From contig NW_015165855.1 in NCBI RefSeq assembly GCF_001447785.1, forward strand, positions 616,338 to 680,337: a stretch of 64,000 nucleotides of DNA, in the 5' to 3' direction. Shown here piece after piece: positions 12,001-15,000 of this stretch (positions are counted from its first letter, which is position 1; each line of letters opens with the position of its first letter). The DNA is from Gekko japonicus (taxonomy: Eukaryota). Position numbers: made by a program.

Positions 12001-15000
12001 ACCAACTGAGGGGACTCACATAGCCTCCTATAATTTTTGAGGAACAAGGTTTGTTTTAAACTATAAACCTTCCTCTCAGTTACCACATGTTCTTAAGGCA
12101 GTAGGTGTATAGGGCCCCGGTCATACGGGCCAGAAAATGTGGGGGGGGGGAGTGTGGCTGTTTGCCCCAGAGGAAAATAACACACGGTTGCACGATCAGA
12201 CGTCCCTTCGAGGTCCCGTGGAGGTCCCGTGGTTAGGGGGCAGGTGCCGATCACACGATGATCCTGCAGCACGGCAAAGAAGCGGTGCGGCGCAATCACA
12301 CCAGCAATCGCTAGGCGCCGCTTCTGTGGCAAACGGGATGGATTTTTTTTAAACTGAAGTTTGTGCATATGCATGACTGAGCAATCGTATCTGCACATCT
12401 GAAGGCGGGTGGTGGGCTGACCGGAGAGGGCGACAGATGCTTCCGGACCCCAACAGAGCTCCGAGGCATAGGCAATGGAGGGGGAGGTGGGCCCCCTCGT
12501 CACAGCCGCTCTAACCACCTGCGCGACAGTGGCCATAGCGACCCTCCAGAGGCAGCAAGCCTGGCTGCAGTGGGAGGGGGCCTCTTTGTGTGCATGCGCC
12601 GTTGGGCGCTTGTGCGCATCCTGTGGAGACTTGGGGGAAAAAACCTGTTCGCGACAGGACATGGGCGGGTGCTGGATGCCACGGGATTCCACCGGAAACG
12701 CGATCAGGCGCCCGCCCTTGCCCCGCGGTTTCAGGAAACTAGTACCTCGGAGGTACTAGTTTTTACCCCGCATCTTCAGCGGGAAGCCTCGGGTTCGGCA
12801 CAGGAGCTCTACGCTTCCCAGATGTGGCGCTGTGATCGCACCCGGAAAATCCGCCTTTCTTCTGTCTCTGTAGCGTGGCTAATGCTCCGTGTGACCGCAG
12901 CCTAGGAATGGGTTCACTGTCATTAGATAAGTTTTGTGGTGCACCAGCAGAATCAATGAGGCAGAAATTGTATATCAATAACACAGAAGTTTTTTGGATT
13001 TTTTACAGGTTGATTTCAACAAATGGCTCAGCATCACAGGTCTCCAGATAGTCAGAGAAGAAACCTGGCTGAGGCACATAAACTTAAGCTAGTTATGCCT
13101 TCAGAGTATGGTTTAAATTTTCTTCAATGCTTTCAGGCACAAACAGGCTTTTATTGACTAGTCACTAGGTTGGATCCTCGCACACATACAGGATTCCACC
13201 CACACCAACCTGCAGTTTCCCAAGACTCAGACTAACCTTTAACTGACTAAATACTAACTATCTCAGGAGTGCAAATATAATTCCAACTCACTTTATACAG
13301 AATAACTTTTCCCAATCTTCATCATCAATAGATCCCATCTCCCTCTCTCATTTAGCCTATCATACCTTGCAGGATTGTTCATGAGAATAAATGCAGTGGG
13401 TTGTTTTTTTCCAGAACAGCCATGCTTGTCTAAGCTCTTACATAGATTACAAATTAATGCACCTATTTTTTTACTGAAGGAATACAAGACCATAATATTA
13501 AATACTTTAGCAAATCCTTCAAATGCCAATTTCATGGGCAATCGATATTATTCTATCAATCACCTTACAAAAAACTTTCCCATCATTAGGCATACAGACA
13601 GGAAGATCAGAATTGAACTAAAATATACCAGAAATTTTGTTACAGACAAAATAATTAATCCTCAGTCCCTTGTTAAGGTACTTATCCACTGAAAATCTGT
13701 CAATTTAGTTTTGCGGAATACTGAAAGTAGTACTTTTCAAATCATGATCTGTTGCTATTATAACACTTCATATGGAGCAAGGCTACACCTTCAGAAAAAG
13801 TATGTGGCACAGCTCTCCTGTGACTGTATCACATCAAAACACGGGTGGGTAAGTCTTATATTTCCTGCCAACCTAGCAGTTCGAAAGCAAGAAATTGCAA
13901 GTAGATAAATAGGTACCACTTCGGTGGGAAGGTAACAGCGTTCTGTGCGCCTTGGTGTTTAGTTAGAGCGGGGGTTAAGATAAACAGTGCAGTCAAGTTG
14001 CAAAATGGAAAATACCAGGAACAGGCAATGTGATGTGAATGAATGTGCCCTGCCTGAAAAAGTGTGTGTGAGAGAAAATGAAGACCGTGTTAATACTCCT
14101 GGTGGCTTCAAATGTGTCTGCACAGAGGGCTTTGAAGAAAAGGATGGTGCCTGTGCTCCAGTTATAAAAACAGGTTAATCAGGTTTTCAATAATTTGAAA
14201 GCTGCCATTCCCTTATTGGAGTCTGAATCTTCTAGAGAACTGCCTGAAGAACTTTCACTGCTTCTCGATGTATGTTCAATGTTTTCTTCTGTTACGCTGT
14301 TGTCCTCTGCTCTTCCATCCTTCGCTGTTGTTTGGTGCTGTTCCAAAAATGCCTTTGCTTTTGTAACAGGGTCAATCTTTTGCTTCTTTTCTTTGTAGTT
14401 GAAGATAAGTCCTTCTGGAGTTATCCATCTGTAGGGGGTGGAGTTGTTACACTAAGACAGTGTTCAGTTGACAGTTGAGATCTGACGATTCGCCATCTTT
14501 TAATATAAGTTGTATGATTTTATATTGATTGATAGTTTTAATGGAATTTTAATGTATTTTTATATATGTTGTTAGCCACCCTGAGCCTGCTGAATGGCGG
14601 GGAGGGCGGGATATAAATGTAAATATATATATTTAAAAAATAGTCATGCCGGCCACATGACCACGGAAATGTCTTCGGACAGCACTGGCTCTTCGGCTTT
14701 GAAACGGAGATGAGCACCGCAACCCTAGAGTCAGATTCGACTGGCTTTCGAGCAAGGGAACCTTTACCTTTACCTTTAAGTCTTATATTAAAATGCCCCC
14801 AAGAATAAAAATGTCCCAGTACTAGGATGTGGGGGAGGATCACAAGCTAAAACACCTTGGTACAAGTTTTTCGTATGGAGGGAAGGAGAATGATTAAATG
14901 TGCAGTTACCCCTTGCCGTAGTACAATCCCAGGGGAATTCATGCGCTTTTCTGAATGTACAGATAGGCTGAGAACATGCACTTCAGATTGGTGGTAGAAT

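What the first reader, a model, noticed from the sequence alone, without database searches (positions are those of the whole stretch)
13964..14640. Chimeric insert (CRELD2-like EGF, antisense L1 ORF1, L2 tail) nested in a Sauria SINE
Seen: a 677-bp block splits the SINE at a duplicated TAGT, so it appears to have arrived as one unit. It holds a CRELD2-like cbEGF coding piece with no AG acceptor before DVNEC, ending ACAG|GT. An antisense L1 ORF1 end follows within 6 bp, then an L2 3' tail. Inference: a host transcript ending in an L2 tail was mobilized in trans by L2 machinery, or RT template switching joined three RNAs. Host-gene capture through a tail-stringent LINE would be unusual. The lost Cys argues against a functional protein.
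Basis: partly seen in the sequence, partly recalled or inferred. Interest (0 to 1): 0.65.

Follow-up and report, generated by a model that had tools for sequence, protein, structure and literature searches.

The report
CRELD2 exon retrocopy with L2-type tail
A 677-base dead fragment of the host gene CRELD2, ending in a retrotransposon-type tail, was pasted in one step into a lizard-type SINE; it is a minor curiosity, not a working gene.

Summary
A 5'-truncated Sauria-type SINE (13863-14776) has its own 13-nt target duplication. It is split by a 677-bp block (13964-14640) flanked by a duplicated TAGT. Two intact SINE copies in the window read straight through that point.

The block holds one calcium-binding EGF exon (14033-14173). 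Its best single-domain matches are CRELD2-type proteins. One cysteine has become arginine. GT follows the exon end, and no acceptor or pyrimidine tract precedes the exon.

The block ends in a roughly 130-170-nt tail. Two LINE-like 3' ends and a tRNA-SINE with a (CTT)n tail in the same window share this tail. The literature assigns that SINE type an L2-clade 3' end.

The "antisense L1 ORF1" call found no support in any test. Its 90-codon open frame is reached by 136 of 2000 composition-matched shuffles.

Best reading (confidence about 0.5): one retroposition of a 5'-truncated, incompletely spliced CRELD2 transcript. The transcript ran into the downstream intron and ended at a sense-oriented L2-type tail, which an L2-clade reverse transcriptase used in trans. 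The parent locus, the copy number and an empty site could not be checked, because no eukaryotic genome or repeat library was available. Interest is low to moderate.

The parts
13850..13862 (+). Left copy of the host SINE's own target-site duplication (TAAGTCTTATATT).
   Evidence: family D8: 13 nt, 100% identical to 14777-14789.
13863..13963 (+). 5' half of a 5'-truncated Sauria-type (Squam1) SINE. Its last 4 nt (13960-13963, TAGT) are the left copy of the insert's TSD.
   Evidence: 98 of 100 columns identical to the copy at 26530-26900(-), and 90 of 101 to the copy at 47720-48090(+).
13964..14031 (+). First 68 nt of the insert; origin unresolved. It is purine-rich, with no 3' splice-site features. 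It reads ...CKMENTRNRQC in the exon's frame. It may be the end of the upstream CRELD2 exon, spliced on.
   Evidence: sequence; tblastn of P0108 and P0136 extends 5 and 2 residues upstream of D; frameshift-aware alignment to three non-squamate CRELD2 upstream segments is not significant (165, 105 and 189 of 500 shuffles reach the score).
14033..14173 (+). CRELD2-type calcium-binding EGF exon (141 nt, phase 1 at both ends; the Asp codon is 14032-14034). Cys to Arg at 14086-14088.
   Evidence: EGF_CA E=1.3e-10. (89% identity to P0009 over 46 aa; 59-73% to 11 other CRELD2-type fragments). (P0136 has DUF3456 plus EGF_CA and ends in REDL).
14174..14480 (+). Unassigned T-rich segment that starts with the GT of the unspliced donor. 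Most simply read as the start of the CRELD2 intron downstream of the EGF exon.
   Evidence: No family or homologue found. ORF length reached by 136 of 2000 dinucleotide shuffles. No other copy in the window.
14481..14640 (+). L2-clade-type retroposon 3' tail: A/T-rich modules, a GC-rich stem-loop (about 14576-14609), GGGCGGGATATAAAT, then a degenerate TAAA-like run ending in A6. The 5' limit is approximate. BLAST-significant similarity covers only 14569-14639.
   Evidence: 75% over 72 nt to 17717-17781(-), E=1.3e-7; also 27441-27503(-) and 24702-24751(+). Alignments. Folds. Passages in PMC7983390.
14641..14776 (+). 3' half of the host SINE. It begins with the right copy of the insert's TSD (TAGT, 14641-14644) and ends in ACCTTT repeats.
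   Evidence: 126 of 132 and 128 of 136 columns identical to the two other copies.
14777..14789 (+). Right copy of the host SINE's target-site duplication.
   Evidence: family D8.

Best explanation
The 677-bp block is one retroposition event and was non-functional from the start.

The proposed template was a CRELD2 transcript in which the intron after the last cbEGF exon was not spliced. This could be intron retention or cleavage within the intron. That intron carried, about 300 nt in and in sense orientation, a short 3' fragment of an L2-clade LINE or SINE.

An L2-clade reverse transcriptase recognised this tail in trans and primed on nicked target DNA inside a young Sauria SINE. It copied back through the intron start and the EGF exon, and probably into the upstream exon, which was already spliced on. 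It stopped after 677 nt (5' truncation). Integration left a 4-bp duplication.

Shown: the boundaries, the TSD, the CRELD2 exon with its unspliced donor, the shared tail, and the nesting order.

Inferred: that 14174-14480 is CRELD2 intron, that the tail sat in that intron, that the 5' 68 nt are the upstream exon, and that L2 rather than L1 enzymes did the copying.
For: 1. Single unit. The SINE sequence is continuous across the site in 2 of 2 other copies. One 4-bp duplication flanks the whole block. A repeat scan of 13850-14800 found no direct repeat flanking an inner part.

2. CRELD2 origin.
- In one search, 528 proteins reached E<=0.001, and the 150 best are listed.
- The best single-stretch hit is P0009 (86 bits, 89% identity).
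- Relatives P0136, P0053 and P0128 end in REDL. P0136 also has PF11938 above its cutoff.
- (R/H)EDL is the conserved CRELD2 C-terminus, and CRELD1 has transmembrane segments there instead (passage in PMC10018036).

3. Exon edges.
- Of 13 tblastn alignments, 8 begin exactly at the Asp codon (14032).
- Three begin one residue later, because those proteins start there.
- Two run 2-5 residues further upstream.
- Seven gene-model fragments (P0021, P0022, P0053, P0067, P0084, P0095, P0104) diverge from each other right before D[IVT]DEC.
- P0009 continues ...PVIKT-EEAAS..., whereas the window continues G-stop from GGT TAA. This is what an unspliced phase-1 donor gives.

4. RNA origin.
- The block ends exactly at the end of a retroposon tail plus an A/T-rich run.
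- There is no acceptor or pyrimidine tract before the exon.

5. Tail.
- The motif is shared with two LINE-like 3' ends that carry (TAAA)n-type tails (17.7 kb and 27.4 kb) and with a tRNA-SINE that has a (CTT)n tail (24.5 kb).
- Squam3 SINEs are described as having an L2-clade 3' end, (TAAA)n or (CTT)n tails and few TSDs (passages in PMC7983390).
- All 4 tails fold into a nested stem-loop whose inner stem differs in sequence between copies.

6. A short TSD and only six terminal A fit L1 poorly.
Against: - The parent CRELD2 locus was not seen. Whether its intron holds 14174-14640 is therefore untested.
- The 5' 68 nt do not align significantly to the upstream exon of three non-squamate CRELD2 proteins. 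Splicing at that edge rests mainly on the missing acceptor.
- If the upstream exon reading is right, that short stretch holds a stop and a frameshift. That is a lot of damage for an insert younger than a SINE only 2-5% diverged from its sister copies.
- Stem-loop z-scores are weak (-1.39, -1.97, -0.04, -0.68).
- No RT-bearing L2 element linked to this tail is present in the window. No repeat library was available, so 'L2' is a label from the literature.
- A4-6 plus a TT|T target cannot fully exclude L1.
Confidence: 0.5

Rival explanations
1. Template switching. During one target-primed reverse transcription that began on an L2-tailed RNA, the enzyme jumped to one or two other RNAs, the last being a CRELD2 pre-mRNA. 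This would make a chimera of unrelated transcripts.
For: One TSD surrounds a composite block. The middle 300 nt resemble nothing else in the window. SINE birth by template switching onto CR1 tails is reported in birds (PMC5729268 and its preprint; search listing only).
Against: The junction would have to fall exactly at an exon end, and by chance be followed by GT (1 in 16). A retained intron predicts both. No microhomology or extra bases mark a junction. No second identifiable RNA was found.
Confidence: 0.15
2. L1-type, poly(A)-dependent retroposition. The sense L2 tail in the intron, with its AATAAA-like repeats, caused premature cleavage and polyadenylation. The short mRNA was then copied by L1 enzymes like any processed pseudogene, with the L2 tail only a passenger.
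For: The block ends in A6. The target reads TT|TAGT, which partly matches the L1 TT|AAAA preference (figure legend in PMC13295347). Partially processed retrocopies are known (citations in PMC5470649).
Against: The A run is only 6 nt. The TSD is 4 bp, short for L1. Only 1 of 4 TSD bases is A. No L1 protein family was detected in the window ORFs tested.
Confidence: 0.15
3. DNA-level capture. A piece of the CRELD2 locus was copied into a double-strand break in the SINE as filler DNA or a small duplication. TAGT would then be repair microhomology.
For: The unspliced donor and the intron-like sequence are what genomic DNA would carry.
Against: The 3' end coincides with the very end of a retroposon tail. 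The sequence before the exon has no acceptor or pyrimidine tract, so it is not the expected genomic intron end. A clean staggered duplication is typical of endonuclease-driven integration.
Confidence: 0.08
4. Serial nesting. The tail, the middle part and the EGF piece arrived in separate insertions.
For: None was found beyond the composite look of the block.
Against: There is one TSD for the whole block and no TSD around any inner part. The inner parts lack tails of their own. The EGF piece ends in a splice donor, not a poly(A).
Confidence: 0.03

Closest known systems
SINE and 'tailed' RNA mobilisation by stringent-type LINEs through a shared 3' tail. Examples are the eel UnaL2/UnaSINE1 experiments, Squam3 with L2, and Sauria SINE with Bov-B.
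   Same: A non-LINE RNA ends in the LINE's 3' stem-loop plus a simple-repeat tail and is copied in trans. TSDs are short or absent, as reported for Squam3 (passages in PMC7983390 and PMC3747384).
   Different: Here the cargo is a pol II host-gene fragment (exon plus intron). It is not a pol III tRNA-derived unit, and there is no sign of repeated amplification. The eel experiment itself is recalled and was seen only as a citation.
5' transduction, or read-through co-mobilisation of upstream flanking sequence by a retroelement
   Same: Sequence upstream of a resident element is carried along, because transcription started upstream and reverse transcription ran past the element's 5' end.
   Different: This is described mainly for L1 (recalled). 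Here the resident element would be only a 130-170-nt tail fragment of an L2-clade family, and the flank is a host exon.
Partially processed (intron-retaining) retropseudogenes
   Same: One junction appears spliced, the next intron is retained, and the copy is truncated and disabled.
   Different: The classical cases end in the mRNA's own poly(A) and are attributed to L1 (citations to Soares 1985 and Baertsch 2008, seen in PMC5470649 passages). This one ends in a LINE tail inside the intron.
Scarcity of retrogenes where CR1/L2-type LINEs dominate
   Same: The argument that sequence-specific template recognition limits which cellular RNAs can hitch-hike (PMC5470649 passage citing Suh 2015) predicts rare exceptions in which a transcript happens to carry the tail. 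This block would be one.
   Different: That work concerns birds and CR1. No such case is documented here beyond this single locus.

Membership tests
CRELD2 (source of the EGF exon) | A calcium-binding EGF domain whose closest relatives have CRELD2 architecture (DUF3456 N-domain, C-terminal (R/H)EDL, no transmembrane segment). | tested here: met
   EGF_CA E=1.3e-10. Relatives P0136 (PF11938 at 24.2 bits against a cutoff of 21.1; ends REDL), P0053 and P0128 (both end REDL). Motif passage in PMC10018036. No named squamate CRELD2 could be fetched (unavailable; one search returned only a sturgeon protein).
CRELD2 (source of the EGF exon) | An intact six-cysteine EGF and an open reading frame. | tested here: not met
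   Cys to Arg at 14086-14088. There are stops at 13981-13983 and 14176-14178. It is a pseudogene fragment.
Sauria (Squam1) SINE, the host element | Full-length collinearity with other copies, an (ACCTTT)n tail and a TSD. | tested here: met
   (89-98% identity to two copies). Tail ACCTTTACCTTT at 14765-14776. (AC2T3)n tails are named in PMC10702118. 13-nt TSD. This copy lacks the tRNA head because it is 5'-truncated. The heads of the other copies were not tested.
L1 ORF1 (antisense, 14179-14451) | A match to L1 ORF1 protein families or structures (Pfam Transposase_22 group, solved ORF1p chains). | tested here: not met
   Pfam gave 0 families at E<=10 for 3 antisense pieces. PDB sequences gave 0 hits at E<=10. 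Of 184 word-sharing candidates, none scored E<=0.01. The Atlas gave no usable hit. Fold search: 0 of 104 matches reached E<=0.001, and none of the matches listed is an L1 ORF1p; the model is weak (pLDDT 66, pTM 0.22). A short, divergent C-terminal remnant cannot be excluded.
L2-clade LINE 3' tail | A 3'-terminal sequence shared between LINE copies and their partner SINE. | tested here: met
   The motif GCCNCCCTGAG...GGGCGGG(A/G)TATAAAT is shared by the insert, two LINE-like 3' ends and one tRNA-SINE in the window. It gave 6 matches against 1.07 expected.
L2-clade LINE 3' tail | The tail belongs to an element encoding an L2-clade reverse transcriptase. | not testable with these tools
   No RT ORF is linked to this tail in the window, and no Repbase or Dfam library was available. 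The label rests on the PMC7983390 passages (Squam3 3' end similar to L2-clade LINEs). Its Fig. 1 alignment and supplements were not seen.
L2-clade LINE 3' tail | A terminal stem-loop followed by a simple-repeat tail. | tested here: inconclusive
   A stem-loop is predicted in 4 of 4 tails, but the z-scores are only -0.04 to -1.97. The insert's terminal repeat is a degenerate TAAA-like run plus A6.
Retrocopy (RNA-mediated duplicate) | Loss of an intron relative to the parent gene. | tested here: inconclusive
   There is no acceptor or pyrimidine tract before the exon, and a 5-residue match to the upstream exon end. The alignment test is not significant. The parent gene was not available.

The most novel reading that the evidence does not exclude
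The block is not a one-off. It would be a member, or the founder, of a young non-autonomous retroposon family in this squamate. In that family an L2-type tail fragment inside the CRELD2 intron repeatedly carries the neighbouring cbEGF exon to new sites. This would be a natural case of exon dispersal, and potential exon shuffling, driven by a stringent-type LINE.
Probability: 0.08. Interest if true: 0.6.

Novelty: new member of a known kind. Interest (0 to 1): 0.3.

Why it matters
LINEs that recognise their own 3' tail (the L2, CR1 and RTE types) are thought to make few host-gene retrocopies, because ordinary mRNAs lack the tail.

A clean case in which a host exon was carried because a tail fragment lay in the adjacent intron would show how such LINEs can still move host coding sequence. 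It would also give a dated, nested marker: the SINE arrived first, then the insert. As a single disabled fragment, antisense to a protocadherin cluster, it has no evident functional consequence.

Tried and rejected
- L1 ORF1 identity of 14179-14451. Rejected as unsupported, on Pfam, PDB sequences, the homologue search with longer proteins, the ESM Atlas (twice), and AlphaFold plus Foldseek. The open frame is explained by the T-poor composition of that strand.
- Upstream-exon test. Frameshift-aware alignment of 13964-14031 to three CRELD2 upstream segments was not significant. The point is left open.
- Word-index homologue searches for the EGF piece and for P0009 returned only 1 protein each. 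A nematode EGF fragment and a sturgeon protein gave no squamate CRELD2.
- Rfam on 13000-15500 (E<=1) found only a tRNA-like SINE head at 15161-15232 and a sub-threshold snoRNA match. It found no ribozyme or other RNA family in the block.
- A self-search of the window found no second copy of the EGF piece or the middle part.
- Serial nesting was rejected for lack of inner TSDs.
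Full report
**Context**

The window is squamate-like. It carries Sauria-type SINEs and other lizard and snake repeats, and I do not take it for human. It lies in a clustered protocadherin locus.
- Seven exon-sized open frames of 800-870 codons sit on the minus strand.
- The one scanned (8609-11143) has five cadherin repeats plus Cadherin_2 and Cadherin_C_2.

The finding lies between two of these exons, on the plus strand. An N stretch at 36800-37167 was left untouched.

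**The host SINE and the insertion site**

- A 13-nt direct repeat, TAAGTCTTATATT, at 13850-13862 and 14777-14789 brackets a 5'-truncated Sauria-type SINE (13863-14776). The SINE ends in ACCTTT repeats.
- Two other copies in the window (26530-26900 minus strand, 47720-48090 plus strand) read ...GGTGTTTAG(C/T)CATGCCGG... without interruption.
- In the finding's copy, the left half ends ...GGTGTTTAGT at 13963 and the right half resumes TAGTCATGCCGG at 14641.
- The two halves are 98.0% (98 of 100 columns) and 95.5% (126 of 132) identical to the 26.5-kb copy. They are 89.1% and 94.1% identical to the 47.7-kb copy.

So a 677-bp block (13964-14640) sits in a young SINE and is flanked by one 4-bp duplication. 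A repeat scan of 13850-14800 found no direct repeat bracketing any inner part.

**The EGF piece**

The open frame 13984-14178 matches Pfam EGF_CA end to end (E=1.3e-10).

A full HMMER scan of 1.84 billion representative proteins found 528 at E<=0.001, of which the best 150 are listed.
- The top ranks are multi-EGF giants, which score by summing many repeats.
- The best single-stretch hits are short fragments and CRELD2-type proteins.
- P0009 is a 72-aa fragment with 89% identity over 46 residues.
- P0021, P0022 and P0036 show 65-69% identity.
- P0028 (339 aa) shows 69% identity and is named only as a sturgeon hypothetical protein.
- P0136 (191 aa) carries PF11938/DUF3456 above its cutoff plus EGF_CA, and ends in REDL.
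- P0053 and P0128 also end in REDL.

A review states that (R/H)EDL is the conserved C-terminus of CRELD2, and that CRELD1 has transmembrane segments there instead (passages only, PMC10018036). I therefore accept CRELD2 as the source.

**Exon edges**

I ran local tblastn of 13 CRELD2-type proteins against the block.
- Eight best alignments start exactly at the Asp codon (14032-14034).
- Three start one residue later, because those proteins begin there.
- Two extend upstream: P0136 by 2 residues and P0108 by 5 (KNGQC against RNRQC, with a one-residue gap).
- Seven gene-model fragments diverge from one another immediately before D[IVT]DEC. Several read ...K(T/A)G and then diverge after the domain. 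This is the behaviour of models that run into introns, and it marks conserved phase-1 boundaries.
- P0009 continues ...PVIKT-EEAAS..., whereas the window continues GGT TAA.

The exon is therefore 14033-14173, followed by an unspliced GT (14174-14175). The third-position cysteine is CGT (Arg) at 14086-14088, where five relatives have Cys.

**The 5' 68 nt (13964-14031)**

This stretch is purine-rich and has neither a pyrimidine tract nor an AG before the exon. It is therefore not the expected intron end. In the exon's frame it reads ...CKMENTRNRQC. This loosely resembles the end of the cysteine-rich repeat that precedes this EGF in P0108, P0136 and P0059.

A frameshift-aware alignment against those three segments is not significant: 165, 105 and 189 of 500 shuffles reach the observed score. 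I read it as the upstream exon, already spliced on, with about 60% confidence. That reading is an inference. If it is right, the stretch carries a stop and a frameshift, which is a lot of damage for so young an insert.

**The middle part (14174-14480)**

No test supported this.
- Pfam found nothing at E<=10 for the 90-codon antisense frame or for two neighbouring antisense frames.
- The PDB chain sequences gave no hit at E<=10.
- None of 184 word-sharing candidates scored E<=0.01.
- The ESM Atlas gave no usable hit, either for the whole frame or for residues 1-42.
- A single-sequence AlphaFold model (pLDDT 66, pTM 0.22; a beta-hairpin and one helix) gave no Foldseek match at E<=0.001 among 104 at E<=10, and no L1 ORF1p among those listed.

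The open frame itself is unremarkable. The plus strand here is 39% T, so the minus strand is poor in stop codons. In 136 of 2000 dinucleotide-preserving shuffles an open frame of 90 codons or more appears. Two 76-codon frames are also open on the plus strand. No other copy of this stretch exists in the window.

A very short, divergent ORF1 remnant cannot be excluded. The simpler reading is that this is the beginning of the CRELD2 intron.

**The tail**

- The motif GGGCGGGATATAAAT, with up to 3 mismatches, occurs 6 times in the window against 1.07 expected.
- BLAST of the block against the rest of the window matches 14569-14639 to 17717-17781(-) at 75% identity (E=1.3e-7). It also matches 27441-27503(-), 24702-24751(+) and 18351-18404(+).
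- The 17.7-kb and 27.4-kb copies are LINE-like 3' ends several hundred nt long, with (TAAA)n-type tails.
- The 24.5-kb copy is a tRNA-headed SINE with a (CTT)n tail.
- The alignment suggests that similarity reaches back to about 14480-14510.
- All four tails fold into a nested stem-loop whose inner stem differs in sequence between copies. Their z-scores are weak, from -0.04 to -1.97.

Passages of PMC7983390 describe Squam3 SINEs as a tRNA head, a CORE domain and a 3' end similar to L2-clade LINEs. They report tails of (TAAA)n or (CTT)n and very few TSDs. That description fits the 24.5-kb SINE, and by extension the tail. I did not see that paper's alignment figure or its supplements, and no repeat library was available. 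'L2' is therefore a literature-based label.

**Mechanism**

The block ends exactly at a retroposon tail. It starts at an arbitrary point and has one short TSD. It also contains an exon joined to its unspliced downstream sequence.

The most economical account is target-primed reverse transcription of an incompletely spliced CRELD2 transcript that ended at a sense L2-type tail lying in the intron. The tail was recognised in trans by an L2-clade enzyme, and the copy was 5'-truncated.

Reviews describe such tail-dependent ('stringent') recognition and its role in limiting host retrocopies (passages in PMC3747384 and PMC5470649). The eel experiment and Suh 2015 were seen only as citations.

Rivals:
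- Template switching would need a jump exactly at an exon end.
- L1-type copying of an intronically polyadenylated transcript is disfavoured by the A6 end, the 4-bp TSD and the poor TT|AAAA match. That consensus was taken from a figure legend in PMC13295347.
- DNA-level capture conflicts with the tail-exact 3' end and the non-intronic 5' flank.
- Serial nesting lacks any inner TSD.

**What stayed unchecked**

- The parental CRELD2 locus, the genome-wide copy number, repeat-library names and the empty site in relatives. No eukaryotic genome collection was on hand.
- Every protein search used one contiguous stretch of the window.

**Verdict**

This is a real, cleanly bounded, single-event insertion of a dead CRELD2 exon-plus-intron fragment with an L2-type tail. 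The L1 ORF1 component is unsupported. It is an instructive but minor example of a known principle.

Noticed in passing
window 3576-6005, 8609-11143, 20900-23446, 31308-33838, 44749-47328, 51413-54016, 59544-62009 (all minus strand): Seven large single-exon open frames of clustered-protocadherin type. The one scanned has 5 cadherin repeats plus Cadherin_2 and Cadherin_C_2. The window is therefore a protocadherin variable-exon array, and the finding lies antisense between two of its exons.
   Followed up: partly
window 31308-32936 and 32918-33838 (minus strand): One protocadherin exon is split into two overlapping open frames (542 and 306 codons). This implies a frameshift: either a pseudogenised variable exon or an assembly error.
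   Followed up: no
window 24490-24790 (plus strand): A tRNA-headed SINE with a CORE-like body, the same 3' tail motif as the insert and a (CTT)n tail. It fits the published description of Squam3B. No obvious TSD.
   Followed up: partly
window 17717-18250 (minus strand) and 27441-27800 (minus strand): Two LINE-like 3' ends share a conserved module, which translates as ...WNELP.EI...KTELF..., followed by the L2-type tail and (TAAA)n-type repeats. A further tail fragment in the opposite orientation abuts the first at 18320-18404.
   Followed up: partly
window 34008-35106 (minus strand): A LINE reverse-transcriptase fragment (Pfam RVT_1, E=9.4e-28). Clade not determined.
   Followed up: partly
window 15161-15232 (minus strand): A tRNA-like sequence (Rfam tRNA 44.9 bits; ARAGORN calls tRNA-Ala GGC) about 385 nt downstream of the host SINE. 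It is probably the head of another tRNA-derived SINE rather than a gene.
   Followed up: no
window 28094-28804 (plus strand) and 19224-19574 (plus strand): Open frames of 236 and 116 codons that look transposon-derived but gave no Pfam family at E<=0.01.
   Followed up: partly
window 13850-13862 / 14777-14789: The host SINE's TSD can be read as starting with A preceded by T. This fits the 'TA' part of the Bov-B/Sauria insertion signature reported in PMC13295347 (passages). The upstream T-stretch of that signature is not evident here.
   Followed up: no
window 36800-37167: An assembly gap or masked stretch of 368 N. Left as it is.
   Followed up: no
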